From a virus (lineage: Duplodnaviria > Heunggongvirae > Uroviricota > Caudoviricetes), in the IMG/VR virus record IMGVR_UViG_2778261577_000002, positions 1-9,532 of that record: a stretch of 9,532 nucleotides of DNA; one strand, written 5' to 3'. Numbering within the stretch: the stretch's first letter is position 1; each line of letters starts with the position of its first letter. The translations under genes and the position numbers were made by a program. The notes below the pieces were generated by a model. It was not told the origin of the DNA. It saw only the letters and a program-made list of their open reading frames with translations, and did not search any database. Shown here in pieces: positions 1 through 9,532 of this stretch.

Positions 1-55
1 AGTCATCGGGCATTATCTGAACATAAAACACTATCAATAAGTTGGAGTCATTACC
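1..55 (+). mobile_element. IS1: IS1 right-end fragment: last insB codons (2-40, ...KVIGHYLNIKHYQ*) plus terminal inverted repeat ending GGAGTCATTACC at 55
   Basis: Recognised by recall as the canonical IS1 3' terminus; frame 2..40 translates to the InsB C-terminus with TAA at 38-40; the element is cut by the window edge. Confidence 0.93.
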
Positions 56-376
56 CAATAGTTGTATTGAATCACTGACGAGACAGCCTCATATTTATCA
101 GGACTGGTGTGCGTCTAATACAGGGGGTTGTCGTGCTGGTTCTCAAATGTGCGCTGGCTATTGCGGCTGTAATGGCAATTTATTGTCTTGCTGTTGTTCT
201 TATGGAGCGGCTTTCTGATTGATTACATACTGGCTAGAAAAAAGGTGTTACCTTGGTTTATCTTTGTCCGGCAAGGTGCGCTCATTAATCTTAAGTAAAT
301 TTATTGCTCAAGTATTCAGATTACTTCTTATGGTTGAAGTCTCCTGTCAATGTAGAACCAATATATTTACAAAAAT

Positions 377-406
377 GAGACCCGTCGGGGATAGCCCTGC
401 CGGGTC
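377..406 (-). terminator. Rho-independent terminator downstream of the minus-strand YeaR-like gene
   Basis: Inverted repeat AGACCCG...CGGGTCT (377-383 / 400-406) forms a GC-rich hairpin; on the minus strand it is followed by a T-run (complement of CAAAAATG at about 369-376), just past the CDS stop at 437-439. Confidence 0.55.
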
Positions 407-436
407 TGACGGTTAAAGCATTTTTAATATGATCAT

Positions 437-775
437 CTATTTTTTGGTGCTATAGACTTTTTCGCCCGAGAAGTCTGGAGCGACCCAAAAGTTAATATTA
501 AACTGAGCATCATCGCTTAGTTCAACACGGTGCCAGTATTGTGGTGGGCTTGTTGCAAAAGCGCCAGCATTAATGACTACTTTTATCTCCGGTTCAGTAG
601 CATTCTCATCAGTAAAACCATAATATGTTACAGTGCCTTCCATTACGCACAACTGCCCAAAAACACCTGCTGCTGTATTATGATGTGTTAATAACGCTGA
701 AGGTACGTTCTCTTTTGTGAAGAACGGAGTTGAGCGTTTGATTACCCAATCTTTAGGAATTCTCTTGTGTGTCAT
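437..775 (-). CDS. YeaR-like DUF1971-family protein (small cupin-like, TehB-N-terminal-related), 112 aa
   Basis: Six-frame ORF 437..799(-); recalled similarity to E. coli YeaR along the whole length (KRSTPF, VMxG, EP, AGxFA, PP, WH, FNI blocks). Start placed at the internal ATG 775-773 (MTHKRIP...) because a strong SD GAGGAGGTGG lies about 6 nt upstream on the minus strand; the ATG at 799 has no SD. Confidence 0.8.
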   Translation of the reverse strand: MTHKRIPKDWVIKRSTPFFTKENVPSALLTHHNTAAGVFGQLCVMEGTVTYYGFTDENATEPEIKVVINAGAFATSPPQYWHRVELSDDAQFNINFWVAPDFSGEKVYSTKK

Positions 776-790
776 AACCACCTCCTCAAA

Positions 791-813
791 AACATGCATT
801 ATAAATGCGTGTT
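791..813. promoter_or_regulatory. Imperfect palindrome AACATGCATTA-T-AAATGCGTGTT resembling an NsrR (Rrf2-family) operator, overlapping a minus-strand TATAAT (798-803) just upstream of the YeaR-like gene
   Basis: Both half-sites match the recalled 11-1-11 NsrR consensus (AAnATGCATTT n AAATGCATnTT) with one mismatch each. The minus strand reads GCATTTATAATGCAT, so a perfect -10 hexamer sits inside the palindrome. A perfect TTGACA lies 21 nt further upstream on the minus strand, which is non-canonical spacing. Confidence 0.4.
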
Positions 814-1100
814 TTTGAGGGTTATGTCAAGCTGTTATGAAACACATAATTGATATGTTGATTAGAGGAGAAGATATAATAAATATGGTTGTTTTTCGTA
901 TAACTATTTGTTTTACTTTTAGTTTATGCATTCTGTGTGTTAGGAATAAGTTATTAAAGTTTAATCAAAAAATCTCGATGTAGTCCACATAGATTATTGT
1001 TACTGAACCTTATTGTGTGTATTAGTTGTGTTCTGAAATTTCAGCTTAATTATTTATGATGTATTTTTTAACGATAAATATTTTCCCAGGATACCTTTAC

Positions 1101-1127
1101 TGTGTATATAAATAAATTATATACACA
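1101..1127. repeat. Perfect 10-bp inverted repeat TGTGTATATA-(7 nt)-TATATACACA in the AT-rich intergenic region
   Basis: Read directly: 1101-1110 is the reverse complement of 1118-1127, with spacer AATAAAT. Candidate operator or protein-binding site; function unknown. Confidence 0.5.
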
Positions 1128-1502
1128 TAAATAATGTAAAGGCGTCCTTTTAGATATATCTTATCAAATGTTAATGACTTGAGTGGGAAATATGATTCCA
1201 GCAACTTATCATGTGGCTACTTTATAAAAATAATGCCCATATAAAACAACAAGCGAAAAGGATTACGGATAAAAAAGGAGCGAGATGTGCGAACTTGTTA
1301 TTTTCCATGTTTAACCACCTTAAATAATTGATGATGACGGGATGATTGCATCTGTAATGCTTTTATTGAAATGTTATGATAAAAAAGAACTTTTGCATAA
1401 CATTAAAATGTAATTTATCTAATCGTTTTTAATAATAAATGTCGTATTTCTATCCTTGTACCAGCTATTTGATATGTAGTGTTTGTTCATGCTATGTGGG
1501 GC

Positions 1503-1530
1503 TTTACACCATAGCCAGTTTATTTATACT
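1503..1530 (+). promoter_or_regulatory. Candidate sigma70 promoter for the DUF1367-YbcO-Q block (-35 TTTACA, 16-bp spacer, -10 TATACT)
   Basis: TTTACA at 1503-1508 and TATACT at 1525-1530, about 60 bp upstream of the ATG at 1589. Sequence match only. Confidence 0.3.
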
Positions 1531-1588
1531 TTATTCGTCAGCCTGAACAACTGGCATCTGTTGCGCTGCGCCATCGAGAGATTGAGAA

Positions 1589-2188
1589 ATGGCGCATATA
1601 CAACTGGTCAAACAAACCTCTTCTGGTTTACTTCTCCCGGCGACGCCGGAGAGTTGCGATTTTCTGCATCAAATCAAAATAGGTGAGTGGATACACGCAG
1701 ACTTTAAGCGTGTGCGTAACTACGCATTCCACAAGCGTTTTTTCAAACTCCTGCAACTGGGATTCGATTACTGGACTCCGGTCGGTGGGGCGATCACACC
1801 TCGCGAACGAGAACTGCTGTCTGGTTTCGTGGATTACTTGTGCGAATCAGTTGGTCGGGAACACACACCAGCCCTGAGTGATGCCGCAGAGCAATATCTA
1901 AATACAGTTGCGACACGCAGAACTCGGGATACGGCATTGCTAAAGTCGTTTGAGGCTTTCCGCGAGTGGGTAACCATTCAGGCCGGATTTTACACCGAGC
2001 ATATTTATCCGGACGGTAGCCGTGGGCGCAGGGCGAAATCCATCGCGTTTGCGAATATGGACGAAACCGAGTTTCAGCAGGTTTATAAATCTGTTCTGAA
2101 TGTGCTGTGGAACTGGATTCTGTTCCGTAAATTCTCCTCTCAGGAGGAAGTTGAAAATGTGGCCGCACAACTACTGGAGTTTGCGTAA
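1589..2188 (+). CDS. Conserved lambdoid-prophage protein, probably DUF1367 family (199 aa), function unknown
   Basis: Clean 199-aa ORF whose stop overlaps the next gene's start (TAATG at 2186-2190). The family assignment is from recall of the DUF1367-DUF1364-Q arrangement in E. coli prophages, not from a search. Confidence 0.7.
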   Translation: MAHIQLVKQTSSGLLLPATPESCDFLHQIKIGEWIHADFKRVRNYAFHKRFFKLLQLGFDYWTPVGGAITPRERELLSGFVDYLCESVGREHTPALSDAAEQYLNTVATRRTRDTALLKSFEAFREWVTIQAGFYTEHIYPDGSRGRRAKSIAFANMDETEFQQVYKSVLNVLWNWILFRKFSSQEEVENVAAQLLEFA

Positions 2189-2478
2189 TGGTGAATTTAC
2201 GTAAAGCGGCTAAAGGCCAGATGTGCCAGATCAGAATCCCTGGCTACTGCAATCACAATCCCGAAACCTCTGTGCTGGCGCATTACAGGCTGGCGGGGAC
2301 GTGCGGAACAGCGACAAAACCACACGATATGCAGGCAGCGATTGCCTGTAGCTCATGCCACGATTTAATCGACGGGCGGGTAAAAACCAGCGATTACACC
2401 AAAGAAGAATTACGCCTGATGCATGCAGAAGGTGTTTTTCGCACACAAGAAATCTGGAGAAAGGAAGGTTATTTATGA
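2188..2478 (+). CDS. ybcO: YbcO-like DUF1364-family protein (putative phage nuclease), 96 aa
   Basis: Recalled near-colinear similarity to DLP12 YbcO (RKAAxGxxCQxRIPGxCNxNPETSVLAH...TKP...IACSxCHD). Start overlaps the upstream stop (TAATG); stop overlaps the downstream start (ATGA at 2475-2478). Confidence 0.85.
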   Translation: MVNLRKAAKGQMCQIRIPGYCNHNPETSVLAHYRLAGTCGTATKPHDMQAAIACSSCHDLIDGRVKTSDYTKEELRLMHAEGVFRTQEIWRKEGYL

Positions 2479-3017
2479 TTTACCCAACAAATACAGGCAA
2501 AAGCGGGGAACACCTTCGTCTCACCACGCTGGAAAGTGTCTGGATTCAGGGAAAACTGCGCATGTGGGGGCGCTGGTCGTATATTGGCGGCGGTAAGACG
2601 GGAAATATGTTTAACCAGTTGCTGGCATCCAAAAAATTGACGAAAACAGCCGTCAATGAAGCCCTGCGCAGGATGAAAAAAGCGGGAATAGAGAAACCTG
2701 AGCTGGAAGCGTTTTTGCGAGAGATGATCAATGGCAAGCAAAAGACCTGGCTGGCGCATTGTACTGATGCAGAGGCGTTATGTATTGATAGAGTCATAAG
2801 TGAGGTGCTGGCAAAACACCCAGGATTGATTTGTATCCTCCGGCAACGATATGAAGGGAGGGGGATGACTAAGCGTAAAATGGCTGAATTGCTGAATGAT
2901 GCACATCCTGAGTGGTGTTTTAGCACATGCGAAAAGCGAATTGCTAATTGGTTAGCCGTTGCTGAATATGCCCTGTATATTCCCATGCGAGAATCATTTG
3001 CTCAAAAAATAGCTTGA
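2475..3017 (+). CDS. Putative late-gene antiterminator Q (non-lambda, possibly phage-21-type family), 180 aa
   Basis: ATG 2475 is preceded by AGGAAGG and overlaps the YbcO stop. Position is the canonical Q slot: after the nin-like genes and before a tR'-like terminator, tRNAs and the lysis cassette. No CxxC zinc motif as in lambda or 82 Q. The assignment is by synteny and size, not by a recognised motif. Confidence 0.6.
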   Translation: MIYPTNTGKSGEHLRLTTLESVWIQGKLRMWGRWSYIGGGKTGNMFNQLLASKKLTKTAVNEALRRMKKAGIEKPELEAFLREMINGKQKTWLAHCTDAEALCIDRVISEVLAKHPGLICILRQRYEGRGMTKRKMAELLNDAHPEWCFSTCEKRIANWLAVAEYALYIPMRESFAQKIA

Positions 3018-3101
3018 TTTTTTACGCATAAATTGCTTCAATTCCGGTATGCTTCGCAAAGCTGTATCGCGAGGCGAACCAAGCGCATGAACTTTACCAG
3101 A

Positions 3102-3130
3102 ACCCGCCATTGAGCGGGTTTTGTTGTTTC
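3102..3130 (+). terminator. Rho-independent terminator (tR'-like) downstream of the Q gene
   Basis: Hairpin ACCCGC-cattga-GCGGGT (3102-3119) followed by TTTGTTGTTTC, about 85 bp after the Q stop. This is where lambdoid phages carry pR' and tR'. Confidence 0.6.
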
Positions 3131-3170
3131 TGGGGGGGCATTTCGTTAAATGAAGCTGTGTTGTGCGCAA

Positions 3171-3210
3171 TTAGCTAATAACACGAATCGTGAATGTATA
3201 TAATGCGCTT
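3171..3210 (+). promoter_or_regulatory. Candidate stable-RNA-type promoter upstream of the tRNAs (-10 TATAAT at 3199-3204 followed by a GCGC discriminator)
   Basis: TATAATGCGC resembles the rRNA/tRNA promoter -10 plus GC-rich discriminator, and the upstream DNA is AT-rich. No good -35 at 16-18 bp spacing, so confidence is low. The tRNAs could instead be read from pR'. Confidence 0.3.
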
Positions 3211-3351
3211 GTTCCTTCGATGGTGTATTCGAATAACGGATTACTGAATACAGCTATCCCATTAAGGGAACACCGCCATCTGCTCATCGGGAAGAGCCGA
3301 CCATCATTTAAGTGGTAGGTGTGAGATTCGATACCTCGGTGGCGGTTCTGT

Positions 3352-3427
<76 letters not shown>

Positions 3428-3430
3428 TAT

Positions 3431-3505
<75 letters not shown>

Positions 3506-3781
3506 GCATTTGAAATAAGCCTTATTGTATTGCAGCACTGGCGTATTTTTATTACGTGGGAGCAGGTTGTTTCGAAAAAGCATTCTGTTCTCTGGCTATG
3601 ATTTGAGGCCAGGTGTAGCCTCAGTGCTGATTTTTTTACGGCAGCAGAATGGTGCATTATCGGTGGAGATTTTGTATTTCCTGGCAGGGCCGGTGATGTG
3701 CCATCCCGATGTTGTAAACATCGCTAAAAATGACATTGAGATTAATCATATACTAAGCAAAACCTGGAAATACATCCTTTA

Positions 3782-3807
3782 CCGCCTCCACCGGGCGGTT
3801 TTTTTTA
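3782..3807 (+). terminator. Rho-independent terminator in the Q-to-S interval
   Basis: CCGCC-tccacc-GGGCGG hairpin (3782-3798) followed directly by a run of nine T (3799-3807). Confidence 0.6.
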
Positions 3808-4190
3808 TTCTGAACCCTAAAAAAAGAAACACGGACACTGATAATGCCCGTGTGGCAATGCCATGTAAGTTAGCGATGAATATGGCGCAAAAAAAGCGCG
3901 GCCGTCGGATTAACGCCGCGGGACAAAGTCCATGAAGAATCATAAGTATTGGCCCCCTTCTGGGACATGTTCATACTACTAAGCTTCAGAAGTGGTTTAA
4001 ATCATCAAATTAACCTTAATTTTCGATAAGTCTTATTTCATTTCTTTGCGCCACATCTGGCGCGCATCAAATAACGCCACGCAAAGGGCATCTGCGGATG
4101 CCGGTGCTTTTGACGGGGTGTTTTTTACGGGCCGCTGGTGGCCATTTTTTGTTTCCATTACACAGCGCCCGCATCTGCGAGGTGGGGGTT

Positions 4191-4406
4191 ATGAAATCCA
4201 TGGATAAGTTAACAACGGGTGTCGCCTATGGCACCTCCGCAGGCAGTGCTGGCTACTGGTTTTTACAGTTGCTCGATAGAGTAACTCCGTCACAGTGGGC
4301 TGCAATCGGTGTGCTGGGTAGTCTGGTTTTTGGCCTGCTGACGTACCTGACAAACCTTTATTTCAAGATTAAAGAAGATAAGCGCAAGGCTGCGAGAGGT
4401 GAATAA
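4191..4406 (+). CDS. S: Phage-21-type class II holin (pinholin S21-like) with dual-start motif MKSMDK, 71 aa
   Basis: Strong recalled similarity to S21/EssD ([25 protein letters not shown]...[14 protein letters not shown]...[20 protein letters not shown]). SD GAGGTGGGGG upstream of ATG 4191. The six-frame ORF 4098..4406 extends upstream, but the homologous start is 4191. Stop TAA overlaps the endolysin ATG. Confidence 0.93.
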
Positions 4407-4903
4407 TGCCTCCATCATTACGAAAAGCCGTTGCTGCTGCTATTGGTGGCGGAGCAATTGCTATAGCATCAGTGTTAATCACTGGCCCAAGTGGTAACGA
4501 TGGTCTGGAAGGTGTCAGCTACATACCATACAAAGATATTGTTGGTGTATGGACTGTATGTCACGGGCATACAGGAAAAGACATCATGCTCGGTAAAACG
4601 TATACCAAAGCAGAATGCAAAGCACTCTTGAATAAAGACCTTGCCACTGTCGCCAGACAAATTAACCCGTACATCGAAGTCGATATACCGGAAACAACGC
4701 GCGGCGCTCTTTACTCATTCGTTTACAACGTGGGTGCTGGCAATTTCAGAACATCGACGCTTCTTCGCAAAATAAACCAGGGCGATATCAAAGGCGCATG
4801 TGATCAGCTACGTCGCTGGACATATGCTGGCGGTAAGCAATGGAAAGGTCTCATGACTCGTCGTGAGATTGAGCGTGAAATCTGTTTGTGGGGTCAGCAA
4901 TGA
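4406..4903 (+). CDS. R: SAR endolysin (phage 21 R21-like lysozyme, T4-lysozyme fold with N-terminal signal-anchor-release domain), 165 aa
   Basis: N-terminal Gly/Ala-rich weakly hydrophobic SAR segment ([20 protein letters not shown]) followed by a lysozyme core with the catalytic E...D...T spacing ([18 protein letters not shown]). Strong recalled similarity to R21/RrrD. Start overlaps the holin stop (TAATG); stop overlaps the Rz start (ATGA). Confidence 0.93.
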
Positions 4904-5365
4904 ACAGAGTAACCGCGATTATCTCCGCTCTGGTTATCTGCATCATCGTCTGCCTGTCATGGGCTGTTAATCATTAACGTGATAACGCCATTACCTACAA
5001 AGCCCAGCGCGACAAAAATGCCAGAGAACTGAAGCTGGCGAACGCGGCAATTACTGACATGCAGATGCGCCAGCGTGATGTTGCTGCACTGGATGAAAAA
5101 TACACGAAGGAGTTAGCTAATGCGAAAGCTGAAAATGATGCTCTGCGTGATGATGTTGCCGCTGGTCGTCGTCGGTTGCACATCAAAGCAGTCTGTCAGT
5201 CAGTGCGTGAAGCCACCACCGCCTCCGGCGTGGATAATGCAGCCTCCCCCCCGACTGGCAGACACCGCTGAACGGGATTATTTCACCCTCCGGGAACGAC
5301 TGGTAATGATGCAGGCCCAACTTGAAGGTGCTCAGCAATACATAACCGAACAGTGTTTAAAGTAA
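4900..5365 (+). pseudogene. Rz: Rz (i-spanin) pseudogene: in-frame TAA at codon 26 (4975-4977) plus a +1 frameshift in a C7 tract (about 5246-5252)
   Basis: The frame from ATG 4900 gives [25 protein letters not shown] then TAA where lambda-type Rz has Tyr. The same frame continues with Rz-like sequence ([34 protein letters not shown]...[24 protein letters not shown]) until the C-run, after which the Rz C-terminus ([17 protein letters not shown]...) is only readable in the +1 frame. Confidence 0.85.
5120..5365 (+). pseudogene. Rz1: Rz1 (o-spanin lipoprotein) reading frame embedded in Rz; signal peptide and lipobox are intact, but the frame is shifted into the Rz C-terminus by the C7 tract
   Basis: ORF 5120..5365 starts with a typical Rz1 N-terminus ([20 protein letters not shown]...[16 protein letters not shown]) and then reads [11 protein letters not shown]..., which is Rz sequence. 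With six C instead of seven the frame would read ...[20 protein letters not shown], a canonical Rz1 end. Confidence 0.75.
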
Positions 5366-5502
5366 AATCTTAACTACAATATGATTCATTTTGATGATTG
5401 TTTCATAAGGAACAGTGAAGTAAGATCTAAGAGGAGTTAAATTTTATACAGTATAATCATAATATTGCAGCAAGGTGGTTATAATTGAAAGAATATTTAG
5501 AT

Positions 5503-6960
5503 ATGAATACATCTCATGTAAGAGTTGTTACTCATATGTGTGGGTTTCTGGTTTGGCTCTATAGTCTTTCAATGTTGCCACCAATGGTTGTAGCATTGTT
5601 TTATAAAGAAAAAAGCCTGTTCGTTTTCTTTATAACTTTCGTTATGTTTTTTTGCATTGGTGGCGGAGCGTGGTATACAACTAAGAAATCTGGCATTCAA
5701 TTACGTACCCGTGATGGGTTTATTATAATTGTAATGTTTTGGATTTTGTTTTCTGTTATTAGTGCATTCCCTTTATGGATTGACTCAGAACTTAATTTAA
5801 CGTTCATTGATGCTCTGTTTGAAGGGGTTTCTGGAATAACAACAACAGGAGCAACTGTAATTGATGATGTTAGTTCATTACCTCGGGCATATTTGTACTA
5901 TCGGTCACAGTTAAATTTTATAGGTGGTTTAGGAGTTATTGTTCTGGCGGTTGCTGTATTGCCATTATTGGGTATTGGTGGTGCAAAGCTTTATCAGTCA
6001 GAAATGCCGGGGCCATTTAAGGATGACAAACTCACTCCCCGCCTGGCCGATACGTCACGGACACTGTGGATAACTTATTCTTTATTAGGTATTGCTTGTA
6101 TTGTCTGTTATAGACTTGCAGGAATGCCTTTGTTTGATGCTATTTGTCACGGGATTTCCACAGTTTCGCTTGGTGGTTTCTCAACTCATAGCGAGAGTAT
6201 CGGATATTTTAATAACTATTTGGTTGAGCTGGTGGCTGGTTCTTTTTCCCTGCTATCGGCTTTCAACTTCACTCTTTGGTATATTGTTATTAGCAGGAAA
6301 ACGATAAAACCTTTAATCAGAGATATTGAACTTCGTTTCTTTCTGTTAATAGCCTTAGGGGTGATCATTGTTACCTCTTTCCAGGTCTGGCATATAGGTA
6401 TGTATGACTTGCATGGAAGTTTTATTCATTCGTTTTTTCTTGCCAGCTCCATGCTCACTGATAATGGTTTAGCTACGCAGGATTATGCAAACTGGCCCAC
6501 GCACACGATAGTGTTTTTGCTGTCGTCAAGTTTCTTTGGGGGATGTATAGGTTCAACTTGTGGTGGAATTAAGTCACTTCGATTTCTTATACTTTTCAAA
6601 CAAAGCAAACACGAGATAAATCAGCTTTCTCATCCCAGAGCGTTGTTGAGTGTAAATGTAGGAGGGAAGATAGTTACAGATCGTGTAATGAGGTCTGTAT
6701 GGAGTTTCTTTTTTCTTTATACTCTCTTCACGGTGTTTTTTATACTGGTGTTAAATGGTATGGGATATGATTTTCTTACATCATTTGCAACAGTGGCTGC
6801 ATGTATTAATAATATGGGATTAGGTTTTGGGGCTACTGCATCGTCATTCGGAGTGCTTAATGACATTGCAAAATATTTAATGTGCATAGCTATGATTCTT
6901 GGTCGCCTTGAAATTTATCCTGTTATTATATTGTTTTCAGGTTTTTTTTGGCGCTCCTAA
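5503..6960 (+). CDS. trkG: TrkH/TrkG-family potassium uptake membrane protein (Rac prophage trkG-like), 485 aa from ATG 5503
   Basis: Long polytopic membrane ORF, recognised by recall as near-identical to E. coli K-12 TrkG (MNTSHVRVVTHMCGFLVWLYSLSMLPP...). AT-rich compared with its neighbours. An in-frame TTG at 5485 with a well-spaced SD (AGGTGG, 5473-5478) is an alternative start. Confidence 0.93.
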   Translation: MNTSHVRVVTHMCGFLVWLYSLSMLPPMVVALFYKEKSLFVFFITFVMFFCIGGGAWYTTKKSGIQLRTRDGFIIIVMFWILFSVISAFPLWIDSELNLTFIDALFEGVSGITTTGATVIDDVSSLPRAYLYYRSQLNFIGGLGVIVLAVAVLPLLGIGGAKLYQSEMPGPFKDDKLTPRLADTSRTLWITYSLLGIACIVCYRLAGMPLFDAICHGISTVSLGGFSTHSESIGYFNNYLVELVAGSFSLLSAFNFTLWYIVISRKTIKPLIRDIELRFFLLIALGVIIVTSFQVWHIGMYDLHGSFIHSFFLASSMLTDNGLATQDYANWPTHTIVFLLSSSFFGGCIGSTCGGIKSLRFLILFKQSKHEINQLSHPRALLSVNVGGKIVTDRVMRSVWSFFFLYTLFTVFFILVLNGMGYDFLTSFATVAACINNMGLGFGATASSFGVLNDIAKYLMCIAMILGRLEIYPVIILFSGFFWRS

Positions 6961-7046
6961 TATATGGCTGATTTATAATTGTGAGTTTAATATTATGTTG
7001 ACTCACTCATTGATCCAATACCTAACTTTACCAGCAACCCCTCCGT

Positions 7047-7080
7047 CCCCAGTAGCACTGGCTGCTGGGGTGCGTTTTAT
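7047..7080 (+). terminator. Possible terminator after trkG
   Basis: Hairpin CCCCAG...CTGGGG (7047-7052 / 7065-7070) followed by TGCGTTTTATT. The T-run is interrupted, so this is weak. Confidence 0.3.
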
Positions 7081-7097
7081 TCATAAAGCAAGGCTGT

Positions 7098-7889
7098 ATG
7101 AGCGAGAAATTAAAGATAGTCTATCGCCCATTACAAGAATTGCCACCGTATGCGCACAACGCCAGGACGCACAGCCCTGAGCAGGTGGCACAACTGGTAG
7201 AAAGTATTAAGCAATTCGGCTGGACTAATCCGGTGCTGATTGACGAAAAGGGCGAAATTATTGCGGGTCACGGTCGTGTTATGGCGGCTGAAATGCTCAA
7301 AATGGATTCTGTTCCGGTCATTGTTCTGTCTGGCCTGACGGATGAGCAGAAAAAGGCGTACCGCCTGGCAGATAATCGCCTGCCGATGAATGCTGGCTGG
7401 GATGAAGATCTGTTGCGGATGGAGCTGTCGGACCTAATCAATGCTGATTTTGATGTCTCCCTGACAGGCTTCATCCCGACAGAAATTGATGAACTGTTGA
7501 CGGATGTTTTGCCCGGTACAGGAAATGAGGAGGAGCCGTATACGACGAAAATTGATACGCCTGTTTATGAGCCGTCGGGCGGTAAACCGGATATCAGTGA
7601 ACTGTACGACGATACGAAAACTCAGGAGCTGATCAGCCGGATACGTTCGGCGTCCCTTGAGCCTGATATTGAGAAATTCCTCCTGTGTGCGGCAGAACGT
7701 CACACGGTGTTTAATTTCAGCAGAATTGCGGACTATTACGCTCACGCCCCCGCTGAAATCCAGTGTTTTTTCGAGGAGTCGGCGCTGGTGATCATTGATT
7801 ATCAGCAGGCTATTGAAAATGGATTTGTCCGGATGACGCAGCGCATGGTGGAGATCATGCATGGTGGTGAGGAGGAGGAATATGCGTGA
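7098..7889 (+). CDS. ParB-like nuclease-domain (ParB/Srx superfamily) protein with an uncharacterised acidic C-terminal domain, 263 aa
   Basis: N-terminal about 120 aa has the ParB-N architecture (conserved ...NARTHSPEQV...L..SI...GW.NPVLID..GEIIAGHGR..AA motif). The C-terminal part has no methyltransferase motifs and ends GGEEEEYA. The stop TGA (7887-7889) overlaps the downstream start. Related to K-12 Rac ynaK by position. Confidence 0.8.
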   Translation: MSEKLKIVYRPLQELPPYAHNARTHSPEQVAQLVESIKQFGWTNPVLIDEKGEIIAGHGRVMAAEMLKMDSVPVIVLSGLTDEQKKAYRLADNRLPMNAGWDEDLLRMELSDLINADFDVSLTGFIPTEIDELLTDVLPGTGNEEEPYTTKIDTPVYEPSGGKPDISELYDDTKTQELISRIRSASLEPDIEKFLLCAAERHTVFNFSRIADYYAHAPAEIQCFFEESALVIIDYQQAIENGFVRMTQRMVEIMHGGEEEEYA

Positions 7890-8814
7890 TGATTTTTGCG
7901 CCTTTATTCTGACTCACGGGCGACCGGACAAAGTTCTGACTTACCGGACGTTGCGTCGTGCTGGCTATACCGGGAAAATTTTTATCGTTGTTGATGATGA
8001 AGATAAGACACGGCATCAGTACATGGCTGAATTTGGTGAACAGGTGCTGGTGTTTTCCAAAGCCGATATCGCCAGTCGTTTTGACGAAGCCGATAATTTC
8101 TGTGACCGCCGCTCAATTTTTTACGCCCGTAATGCCTGTTTCGACCAGGCAAAACTGGTCGGGTGTAAATACTTCATTCAGCTCGATGATGATTATCACG
8201 AGTTCCAGTTTCGGGTGGATCGCAACTATGACCAGGCCTATTTTCCGATAAGGAAACTGGATGCGATCCTTTCTGAAATGCTGGCGTACTACGAATCAAT
8301 ACCTGCTCTTTCCATCGCTATGTCGCAGGGAGGGGATTTTCTTGGTGACAATGGCGGCCATGCTTCGTGGGTGAAACGCAAGGCAATGAACAGCTTTATC
8401 TGTTCGGTTGATCGACCGTTCTCATTCATGGGGCGCATTAACGAGGATGTGAATACGTACACGAATCTCGGTCGCTGTGGTGAATTGTTTATGACGATCG
8501 GTGCTGTCCAGTTAGGGCAGAAACAGACGCAGAAAAACAGCGGCGGAATGACCGAGCTGTATCTGGATTCCGGAACCTACGTTAAAAGTTTTTACTCCGT
8601 CATGTATGCGCCGTCGTGCGTAAAAATCTCACTGATGGGTGCCAGCCATAAACGCATTCACCATCAGGTCACCTGGAACAACGCTGCAGTAAAAATCCTT
8701 CACGAAAAATACAGGAAGAAGACACCCTGCATATCAATGGGGGTGACAAATGATTCCGTATTCGAAAGTCGAGTCTCTGGCAGCGTGCCGGATGACTGCA
8801 CAACAAATCGCTGA
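7882..8814 (+). CDS. Uncharacterised protein with a GT-A-like nucleotide-sugar transferase signature (N-terminal beta-strand CAFILTHGRP, FIVVDDED, DxD-type motif QLDDDYHEF), 310 aa from ATG 7882
   Basis: The ORF is open from 7861. ATG 7882 is preferred because GAGGAGGAGG lies 5-6 nt upstream and it overlaps the ParB-like stop by 8 nt, suggesting translational coupling; ATG 7861 with SD GGTGGAG is a possible alternative. The fold call is a motif-based inference, not a database match. Confidence 0.7.
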   Translation: MRDDFCAFILTHGRPDKVLTYRTLRRAGYTGKIFIVVDDEDKTRHQYMAEFGEQVLVFSKADIASRFDEADNFCDRRSIFYARNACFDQAKLVGCKYFIQLDDDYHEFQFRVDRNYDQAYFPIRKLDAILSEMLAYYESIPALSIAMSQGGDFLGDNGGHASWVKRKAMNSFICSVDRPFSFMGRINEDVNTYTNLGRCGELFMTIGAVQLGQKQTQKNSGGMTELYLDSGTYVKSFYSVMYAPSCVKISLMGASHKRIHHQVTWNNAAVKILHEKYRKKTPCISMGVTNDSVFESRVSGSVPDDCTTNR

Positions 8815-9001
8815 CGTTCTGGATGTTGATCTGAACCGACTGAAAGAAAATCGGGAAGCAATGACAGATTTTTATGCGGCCATCCGTAAGGGCAGAGCGA
8901 AAGGTGAAGCCGAGTTACGAGCGGCATTGTTTAAGCTTGCCAGAAAAGGGGATGCCTTTGCTCTGCGCGAACTACTCAGGGTGGATAAAAATCAGGACTA
9001 A
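8750..9001 (+). CDS. Small helix-turn-helix protein (83 aa), possibly a packaging-associated DNA-binding protein
   Basis: ORF with SD GGGGGTGA upstream of ATG 8750. HTH-like segment MTAQQIADVLDVDLNRLKE. Overlaps the 3' end of the upstream gene by 65 nt in another frame. Sits immediately upstream of the terminase-like fragment. Confidence 0.5.
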   Translation: MIPYSKVESLAACRMTAQQIADVLDVDLNRLKENREAMTDFYAAIRKGRAKGEAELRAALFKLARKGDAFALRELLRVDKNQD

Positions 9002-9004
9002 CTG

Positions 9005-9178
9005 ATGAGCAGACCGGACTGGGGGGCGTTGCAGCAGGAGTATATTGCTGAATACACCCGCTCCGGTATATCTCCGGTGGCATGGTGTGAAGCAAGGGGA
9101 CTGAATTACGCAACAGCCCGTCGTTACATCAAAAAAACTCCGAAAAATGCGCAGACAGAAATGTGCAAAACTGGGTGA
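9005..9178 (+). pseudogene. N-terminal fragment (57 codons) of a probable terminase small subunit or HTH packaging protein, truncated by IS1 insertion
   Basis: ATG 9005 gives MSRPDWGALQQEYIAEYTRSGISPVAWCEARGLNYATARRYIKK..., resembling the N-terminal HTH of phage small terminase subunits. The frame runs into the IS1 left inverted repeat and ends at a TGA (9176-9178) contributed by the IS1 terminus GGTGATG. Confidence 0.5.
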
Positions 9179-9532
9179 TGCTGCCAACTTACTGATTTAG
9201 TGTATGATGGTGTTTTTGAGGTGCTCCAGTGGCTTCTGTTTCTATCAGCTGTCCCTCCTGTTCAGCTACTGACGGGGTGGTGCGTAACGGCAAAAGCACC
9301 GCCGGACATCAGCGCTATCTCTGCTCTCACTGCCGTAAAACATGGCAACTGCAGTTCACTTACACCGCTTCTCAACCCGGTACGCACCAGAAAATCATTG
9401 ATATGGCCATGAATGGCGTTGGATGCCGGGCAACAGCCCGCATTATGGGCGTTGGCCTCAACACGATTTTCCGCCATTTAAAAAACTCAGGCCGCAGTCG
9501 GTAACCTCGCGCATACAGCCGGGCAGTGACGT
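9174..9532 (+). mobile_element. IS1: IS1 left end (IRL GGTGATGCTGCCAACTTACTGAT) through insA and into the insA/insB junction; truncated by the window edge
   Basis: Recognised by recall as the canonical IS1 5' terminus; same orientation as the IS1 fragment at 1-55. Confidence 0.95.
9229..9504 (+). CDS. insA: IS1 InsA (transposition inhibitor / N-terminal part of the InsAB' transposase), 91 aa, GTG start
   Basis: Translation [91 protein letters not shown] matches IS1 InsA as recalled, apart from one residue (IFRH here, ILRH in the copy I remember). Confidence 0.96.

What the first reader, a model, noticed from the sequence alone, without database searches (positions are those of the whole stretch)
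1..9532. The whole module is bracketed by two IS1 copies in the same orientation
An IS1 right end finishes at 55 and an IS1 left end starts at 9174, both on the + strand. The intervening 9.1 kb lacks the early, replication and structural regions expected next to these late genes. Directly repeated IS1 copies can drive deletions, inversions or composite-transposon movement of the bracketed segment, which here includes trkG and the ParB/GT-A pair. The abrupt content change right of position 55 (a YeaR-like gene on the opposite strand, then late genes) fits an IS1-mediated rearrangement.
Basis: partly seen in the sequence, partly recalled or inferred. Interest (0 to 1): 0.5.

Follow-up and report, generated by a model that had tools for sequence, protein, structure and literature searches.

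The report
Prophage contig ending in IS1 repeats
The window is one complete short-read contig from a decaying Rac-type prophage of E. coli that stops inside a copy of the common insertion sequence IS1 at each end, which is ordinary IS-driven prophage erosion and not a new mobile module.

Summary
Bases 1-55 are the last 55 bases of IS1 (55/55 identical). Bases 9174-9532 are the first 359 bases (357/359), on the same strand. However, the window is the whole of contig NLMO01000108.1 (9532 bp) from a draft assembly, so it probably ends in IS1 because the assembler broke at a repeat. What lies beyond either end cannot be read.

The interior (56-9173) keeps the ancestral gene order. It aligns in one piece with IS1-free Rac-type prophages (best 99.4%; 99.9% to strain ET82 apart from an IS3 insertion there). 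So the "abrupt content change" after position 55 was not made by IS1.

The left IS1 sits in an intergenic stretch that IS1 has hit repeatedly. Strain A65EC has an IS1 at the same 9-bp target, CAATAGTTG, as a simple insertion in the opposite orientation.

The right IS1 cuts the small-terminase gene after codon 56. In the only complete genome with that junction, the IS1 has no target duplication and abuts uspF, so the structural genes are deleted there.

None of 5,426 complete E. coli genomes carries both junctions, and the segment was never found outside a prophage. A composite transposon is therefore unsupported. This is known biology of low interest.

The parts
1..55 (+). Right end of IS1 (positions 714-768 of the 768-bp element, including the right inverted repeat). 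The contig starts inside it.
   Evidence: 55/55 identical to the full IS1 of AP027829; sequence read.
56..64 (.). CAATAGTTG, the 9-bp flank of the left IS1. The same 9 bp is the target-site duplication of an oppositely oriented IS1 in strain A65EC.
   Evidence: the A65EC IS1 (L005 9256-10023, minus strand) is flanked by CAATAGTTG on both sides.
437..775 (-). DUF1971 / TehB-like ('YeaR-like') gene. It occupies this position in IS1-free relatives too.
   Evidence: Pfam PF09313 on the called gene. The same gene is annotated at the same place in PSJ-07, ET82, 300081 and A65EC.
1589..3017 (+). Three late-regulatory genes: DUF1367 (1589-2188), YbcO/DUF1364 (2188-2478) and DUF1133, which has a faint antiterminator-Q hit (2475-3017).
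3352..3505 (+). Prophage tRNA-Thr (tgt) at 3352-3427 and tRNA-Gly (tcc) at 3431-3505.
   Evidence: ARAGORN; annotated in relatives.
4191..5365 (+). Lysis cassette: holin (4191-4406), lysozyme (4406-4903) and Rz/Rz1 (4900-5365). Rz is a pseudogene here.
   Evidence: Pfam hits. Rz has a stop at codon 26 and a frameshift compared with PSJ-07. The C-to-A change at 4977 is unique to the window among the 8 sequences compared.
5503..6960 (+). trkG potassium transporter (TrkH family).
   Evidence: annotated as trkG in all relatives.
7098..9001 (+). ParB_N protein (7098-7889), TAGT-family glycosyltransferase-like protein (7882-8814) and a small hypothetical gene (8792-9001).
   Evidence: Pfam PF02195 and PF20691.
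9005..9173 (+). First 56 codons of the small-terminase gene, cut by IS1. The reading frame runs into IS1 and stops at 9176-9178.
   Evidence: Translation. The full 1095-bp terS is annotated at this position in PSJ-07 and ET82. The truncated 57-aa product is on record in a handful of other contigs.
9174..9532 (+). Left end of IS1 (positions 1-359, including the left inverted repeat and insA at 9229-9504). The contig ends inside it.
   Evidence: 357/359 identical to the full IS1; Zn_ribbon_InsA and HTH_Tnp_IS1 domains.

Best explanation
The window is the unique DNA between two IS1 copies in a defective Rac-type lambdoid prophage of E. coli. It was recovered as one complete short-read contig that breaks in the IS1 repeat at both ends. 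The 9.1-kb interior is in its native order and native prophage context. The two IS1 copies are best read as separate events in the IS-driven erosion of a dead prophage. One lies in an intergenic module boundary that IS1 hits often. The other disrupts the small-terminase gene after codon 56. By analogy with the relatives that carry the same terS junction, the right-hand IS1 has probably deleted or rearranged the head and tail genes, either by an adjacent deletion or by recombination with another IS1. That last step is inferred for this strain, not shown. The pair is not acting as a mobile composite element.
For: - The window is the whole contig NLMO01000108.1, 9532 bp.
- Both ends are IS1 in the same orientation.
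- Positions 52-9173 are collinear in one piece with IS1-free relatives, for example PSJ-07 at 99.43%. ET82 differs at only 5 positions over 8.7 kb and has no IS1 at either site. The intact layout places replication and cargo genes to the left and terS, terL, portal and capsid genes to the right.
- Left site: A65EC has a simple IS1 insertion with a perfect 9-bp duplication of the same target, in the opposite orientation. Four more IS1 junctions lie within about 240 bp, in other genomes or in paralogous prophages.
- Right site: the exact junction occurs in 1 of 5,426 complete genomes. There the full IS1 has no duplication and its right flank maps next to uspF, beyond the end of Rac. In a 78-kb draft contig the same junction leads to ETT2 secretion genes. 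No complete genome has the complementary junction expected from a simple insertion.
- Sibling prophages carry different IS1 and IS3 insertions and deletions.
- Rz is a pseudogene in the window.
- Loss of target duplications through IS-IS recombination or adjacent deletion is a documented general pattern (PMC11708052, read).
Against: The outer flanks of both IS1 copies in this strain are unknown. The window's prophage is of the ET82 type, while the genomes sharing the terS junction carry a somewhat different prophage (99.09% identity, 46 mismatches in 5.4 kb). No discriminating SNP lies between 8332 and 9173. The junction could therefore be an independent insertion at the same nucleotide, in which case nothing is known about its right flank. 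Both IS1 copies could be simple insertions in an otherwise complete prophage.
Confidence: 0.8

Rival explanations
1. Both IS1 copies are simple insertions, each with its own 9-bp duplication. The prophage continues unchanged on both outer sides, so there has been interruption only, with no deletion or rearrangement.
For: The left target is used for a simple insertion in A65EC. The closest relative, ET82, has the full flanking regions and differs at only 5 positions, so the insertions could be very recent.
Against: Both inspected instances of the terS::IS1 junction with a readable right flank lack the target duplication and join foreign DNA. No complete genome shows the complementary simple-insertion junction. 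Several other IS1 copies in sibling prophages also lack duplications.
Confidence: 0.25
2. The IS1-9.1 kb-IS1 unit is a composite transposon of the Tn9 kind that can move trkG and the ParB/TAGT pair as a block.
For: Two IS1 ends in direct orientation bracket the segment. Direct IS1 pairs can form composite transposons; this is established knowledge from Tn9 and the r-determinant of R100/NR1, recalled and not tested here.
Against: The segment lies at its native position and in its native order within the prophage. None of 5,426 complete genomes has the left junction, one has the right junction, and none has both. Junction scans of metagenome and species-representative collections gave no hits. 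The plasmid and phage collections were not searched.
Confidence: 0.03
3. The two fragments are the two ends of a single IS1. The contig then represents either a 9.9-kb circle excised by IS1-IS1 recombination, or one unit of a tandem amplification.
For: An assembly graph cannot distinguish a segment between two direct repeats from a circle or tandem array with one repeat per unit. The two ends are compatible in orientation.
Against: No plasmid-type replication gene was identified among the called genes of the segment. In every complete genome inspected the segment is chromosomal and lies inside a prophage. An excised circle would not persist at assembly-level abundance.
Confidence: 0.03

Closest known systems
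IS1-mediated adjacent deletion and IS1-IS1 recombination in E. coli
   Same: IS1 ends abut prophage DNA. In relatives with the same terS junction the IS1 lacks a target duplication and is joined to distant DNA. This is the recognised signature of adjacent deletion or inter-IS recombination (PMC11708052).
   Different: For this strain the outer flank is not available, so the deletion is inferred and not shown.
Cryptic prophage Rac of E. coli K-12 (ttcA-uspF locus)
   Same: Same chromosomal locus in relatives: intR, xisR and recET on the left, uspF and ompN on the right. The Rz'-trkG-ynaK core is shared; window 4920-7351 is 98.9% identical to K-12.
   Different: K-12 Rac has no IS1 here. It also lacks the DUF1971 gene, the DUF1367/1364/1133 genes, the tRNAs, holin, lysozyme, the full-length ParB_N gene, the TAGT gene and terS. 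It is a different and more heavily deleted derivative.
Tn9 and the r-determinant of R100/NR1 (composite elements with direct IS1 repeats)
   Same: Direct orientation of two IS1 ends around a cargo segment.
   Different: There is no evidence of movement, no outer duplication can be seen, and the cargo sits in its native context. The comparison with Tn9 and R100 rests on recalled knowledge.
Repeat-induced contig breaks in short-read assemblies
   Same: The contig ends inside a multicopy IS at both ends. The 55 bases of IS1 at the left end equal a k-mer size commonly used by de Bruijn assemblers (my own knowledge, not verified for this assembly).
   Different: The right end holds 359 bases of IS1, which a simple k-mer overlap does not explain.

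Membership tests
IS1 insertion sequence | Terminal inverted repeats: the left end begins GGTGATGCTGCCAACTTACTGAT and the right end finishes ...AAGTTGGAGTCATTACC | tested here: met
   Both termini were read directly. They are 100% and 99.4% identical to the ends of a full element annotated as IS1B.
IS1 insertion sequence | An insA reading frame (zinc ribbon plus HTH) followed by insB' through a programmed frameshift | tested here: inconclusive
   insA is present at 9229-9504 with PF03811 and PF12759. The contig ends before insB', so the transposase part is not seen.
IS1 insertion sequence | A complete element of 768 bp | not testable with these tools
   Only 55 and 359 bases lie in the contig. 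Full 768-bp copies stand at the same right junction in AP027829 and in L007.
IS1 insertion sequence | A target-site duplication of 8-9 bp for a simple insertion | not testable with these tools
   The outer flanks are absent from the window. At the same left target, A65EC shows a perfect 9-bp duplication. At the same right junction, AP027829 and L007 show none.
IS1 composite transposon (Tn9-like) | Two complete IS1 copies bracketing the cargo | not testable with these tools
   The contig ends inside both copies.
IS1 composite transposon (Tn9-like) | One 8-9 bp duplication flanking the whole unit | not testable with these tools
   The outer flanks are not in the window. Scans for the junctions in other collections returned nothing.
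IS1 composite transposon (Tn9-like) | The unit, with both junctions, occurs in more than one genomic context | tested here: not met
   Of 5,426 complete E. coli genomes, none has the left junction and one has the right junction. The interior was found only in a prophage, in native order. The plasmid and phage collections were not searched.
Rac-type lambdoid prophage remnant | Collinearity with prophages at the ttcA-uspF locus, including the Rz-trkG-ynaK core | tested here: met
   Single-piece alignment at 99.4% to PSJ-07. A65EC carries intR, xisR and recET upstream and uspF and ompN downstream. The K-12 Rac core matches at 98.9%.

The most novel reading that the evidence does not exclude
The IS1-bracketed 9.1-kb block could be a functional translocatable or amplifiable unit that carries trkG and the ParB_N/TAGT pair. 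A milder version is that CAATAGTTG, preceded by an ACC that mimics the IS1 terminus, is a precise IS1 hot spot usable in both orientations at a module boundary where anti-phage cargo genes sit.
Probability: 0.04. Interest if true: 0.3.

Novelty: already known. Interest (0 to 1): 0.08.

Why it matters
It matters little. The case shows that a contig or window ending in an insertion sequence at both ends should first be read as an assembly break at a repeat. It also adds one more example of IS1 eroding a defective Rac-type prophage. The only mildly useful by-product is the list of recurrent IS1 junctions at one module boundary of lambdoid prophages, including reuse of the same 9-bp target in both orientations.

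Tried and rejected
- I searched 5,426 complete E. coli genomes for the exact left junction. There was no true match. The ten records covering at least 80% of the query were IS1 copies 104-208 bp away, an inverted copy, an oppositely oriented copy, or an unrelated locus near icd and ymgA at 83% identity.
- I searched for the junctions that simple insertions would leave on the outer sides. There was none at terS. On the left there were only A65EC (opposite orientation) and LCP30S3_I3, an insertion 11 bp further along in a paralogous prophage.
- Exact-pattern scans of species-representative genomes and of JGI metagenome contigs, for the left inner, left outer and right junctions, gave 0 hits in four scans.
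- A literature search for the assembly accession gave 0 papers.
- I tried to decide whether the terS::IS1 junction is shared by descent with AP027829. It is uninformative, because all lineages are identical between 8332 and 9173, and the IS1 fragments differ at only 2 of 359 positions.
- I considered recovering other contigs of the same assembly through protein look-ups. I rejected this because the look-up cannot be restricted to one sample and the search cost was not justified.
- I considered that the A65EC IS1 could be the window's IS1 flipped in place. I rejected this because the two inverted repeats differ in sequence up to the termini, so a flip would not exchange the terminal bases. This is reasoning, not a test.
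Full report
**Observation.** The first 55 bases of the window are the last 55 bases of IS1, ending ...AAGTTGGAGTCATTACC. Bases 9174-9532 are the first 359 bases, beginning GGTGATGCTGCCAACTTACTG. I compared both with a complete 768-bp IS1 cut out of E. coli AP027829. The left fragment is 55/55 identical to positions 714-768, and the right fragment is 357/359 identical to positions 1-359. Both are on the + strand. The insA frame lies at 9229-9504. The boundaries are exact. IS1-free relatives read ...CTATACC|CAATAGTTG at the left site and ...GCAAAACTG|CGCAAAAAAG at the right site.

**What the window is.** An exact-protein look-up with the truncated terminase product (9005-9178) returned a record that is the window itself. 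It is NLMO01000108.1, contig length 9532, range 1-9532, from draft assembly GCA_002229045.1 (locus L008). The window is thus a complete contig. A short-read contig that ends in a multicopy IS at both ends is what repeat-induced assembly breaks produce. The 55-base stub equals a commonly used k-mer size; that point is my own knowledge and was not verified for this assembly. Two consequences follow. First, the bracket is real in that IS1 sequence abuts the segment on both sides. Second, the window cannot show whether the copies are complete or what lies beyond them, and the "missing" early and structural regions are simply outside the contig.

**The interior is ancestral.** Against 5,426 complete E. 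coli genomes, 181 hold at least 80% of the window. Several align to 52-9173 in a single piece, for example PSJ-07 at 99.43%. The closest relative, ET82, differs at 5 positions over 8.7 kb and has no IS1 at either site, although it has IS3 and IS1 insertions elsewhere in the prophage. In PSJ-07 the full layout, in order, is:
- HTH regulators, ydaT, ydaV and DUF1627/DUF977 genes;
- a cargo block of TetR, adenosine deaminase, NTP pyrophosphatase and SIR2;
- the window's content: DUF1971, DUF1367/DUF1364/DUF1133, tRNA-Thr and tRNA-Gly, holin, lysozyme and Rz, trkG, ParB_N, a TAGT-like gene;
- terS, terL, portal, head and capsid genes.

In A65EC the same prophage has intR, xisR and recET on its left and uspF and ompN on its right, which is the Rac locus. 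So the DUF1971 gene followed by late genes is the native order and not an IS1 rearrangement. K-12 Rac shares only window 4920-7351 (98.9%) and has no IS1 there.

**Left site.** No complete genome has the window's left junction. A65EC has a full IS1 at exactly the same nucleotide, in the opposite orientation, flanked on both sides by CAATAGTTG. That is a simple insertion with a 9-bp duplication. Other IS1 junctions cluster nearby:
- LCP30S3_I3: in a paralogous prophage, the insertion point lies 11 bp beyond the window's 9-bp target. That element is one of two inverted IS1 copies whose 9-bp flanks are swapped, which is the signature of two insertions followed by an inversion.
- PigCaeca_1: 104 bp upstream.
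- MB53: 208 bp upstream.
- ECONIH4: 217 bp upstream. Twenty-one other genomes give the same two-piece match and probably share this arrangement, but only ECONIH4 was inspected.

This stretch is a recurrent IS1 landing zone at a module boundary. Its G+C content (0.40-0.44) is not unusual for the window. The clustering may therefore reflect tolerated insertions as much as target preference.

**Right site.** IS1 cuts the small-terminase gene after codon 56, and the frame stops inside IS1. The exact junction occurs in one complete genome, AP027829. It also occurs in a few draft contigs, most of which break in IS1 as well. In AP027829 the IS1 is complete and has no target duplication (left flank ...GCAAAACTG, right flank AGAAATCTG...). 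Its right flank maps to K-12 DNA beside uspF, 67 bp beyond the end of the ttcC pseudogene, which marks the right edge of the annotated Rac prophage. The whole structural arm, up to and past the annotated right boundary of Rac, is therefore missing. In the 78-kb contig CAJDGC010000017 the same junction and a full IS1 lead to ETT2 secretion-system genes. No complete genome has the complementary junction that a simple insertion would leave. Missing duplications of this kind are generally attributed to inter-IS recombination or adjacent deletion (PMC11708052).

Whether the window shares this junction by descent is undecidable. Its prophage is of the ET82 type, while the AP027829 lineage differs at 46 positions in 5.4 kb. 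None of those differences lies between 8332 and 9173.

**Interpretation.** The best reading is ordinary IS-driven decay of a defective prophage. Sibling prophages carry different IS1 and IS3 insertions and deletions. In the window, Rz is a pseudogene with a stop at codon 26 and a frameshift. In the ECONIH4-type genomes a single IS1 has replaced the whole region up to uspF. The specific claims do not hold: the content change at 55 is not IS1-made, and composite-transposon movement has no support. None of 5,426 complete genomes has both junctions, and four scans of other collections gave no hit. The plasmid and phage collections were not searched.

**What remains open.** A single IS1 on a circle, or a tandem array, cannot be excluded from a contig alone. 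It is unlikely, because no plasmid-type replication gene was identified among the called genes and the segment is chromosomal in every genome inspected. The true outer flanks in this strain need the other contigs, read mapping or long reads.

**Verdict.** This is a known kind of event and of low interest.

Noticed in passing
window 4900-5365: The Rz spanin gene is a pseudogene in this strain. It has a stop at codon 26 (TAC to TAA at 4977, unique to the window among the 8 sequences compared) and a downstream frameshift relative to PSJ-07. This is further evidence that the prophage is defective.
   Followed up: yes
window 56-64; L005 9247-10032 (A65EC): The same 9-bp target, CAATAGTTG, was used by IS1 in two strains in opposite orientations. 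The target is preceded by ACC, which matches the terminal bases of IS1. At least four more IS1 junctions lie within about 240 bp in other genomes or paralogous prophages.
   Followed up: partly
L012 6081-11076 (E. coli LCP30S3_I3): Two inverted IS1 copies (95.6% identical to the IS1 of AP027829) bracket a hokD-ydfU-ydfT-cspF' segment that is inverted relative to MB53. The four 9-bp flanks form two reverse-complement pairs (TTGAATCAC and CCACATTCC), as expected for two simple insertions followed by an IS1-IS1 inversion.
   Followed up: partly
L014 6283-7050 (E. coli ECONIH4; probably 21 other genomes): A single IS1 joins an island (BCCT transporter, DUF2254, LysR, GGCT, MFS transporter) directly to ttcC'/uspF. 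In strain 2017.15.01CC the same island is followed by the DUF1971-to-capsid prophage region. This is an IS1-associated loss of the whole prophage arm, with endpoints different from the window's.
   Followed up: partly
L007 5491-6258 and flanks (CAJDGC010000017.1): The same terS::IS1 junction is followed by ETT2 type III secretion genes (Bac_export_1/3, FliP, SpaO-like) and xanthine dehydrogenase genes, which lie far from Rac in K-12. This is either a large IS1-mediated chromosomal rearrangement or a mis-join across the repeat.
   Followed up: no
window 7098-8814; L013 15378-15981 (K-12 ynaK and ydaY): The window has an intact 263-aa ParB_N gene overlapping a 310-aa TAGT-family (PF20691) gene. 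Similarity to K-12 ends at window 7351, so K-12 ynaK (88 codons) looks like a remnant of the longer gene. RefSeq annotates ynaK in the relatives as an incomplete pseudogene, whereas the gene calls on record give a full-length 263-residue product.
   Followed up: no
L001 4550-7623; L012 3438-4878: Immediately left of the IS1 site, different prophages carry different cargo. PSJ-07, ET82 and 300081 have TetR, adenosine deaminase, NTP pyrophosphatase and SIR2. LCP30S3_I3 has SMODS and SLATT genes. Both sets resemble anti-phage defence genes, which suggests a variable cargo slot at this module boundary.
   Followed up: no
window 3077-4175 versus L003 3522-7053: In the AP027829 lineage the stretch holding tRNA-Thr, tRNA-Gly and a small hypothetical gene is replaced by two TolA-C-terminal-domain genes plus an IS2. 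This is mosaic exchange between otherwise closely related prophages.
   Followed up: no
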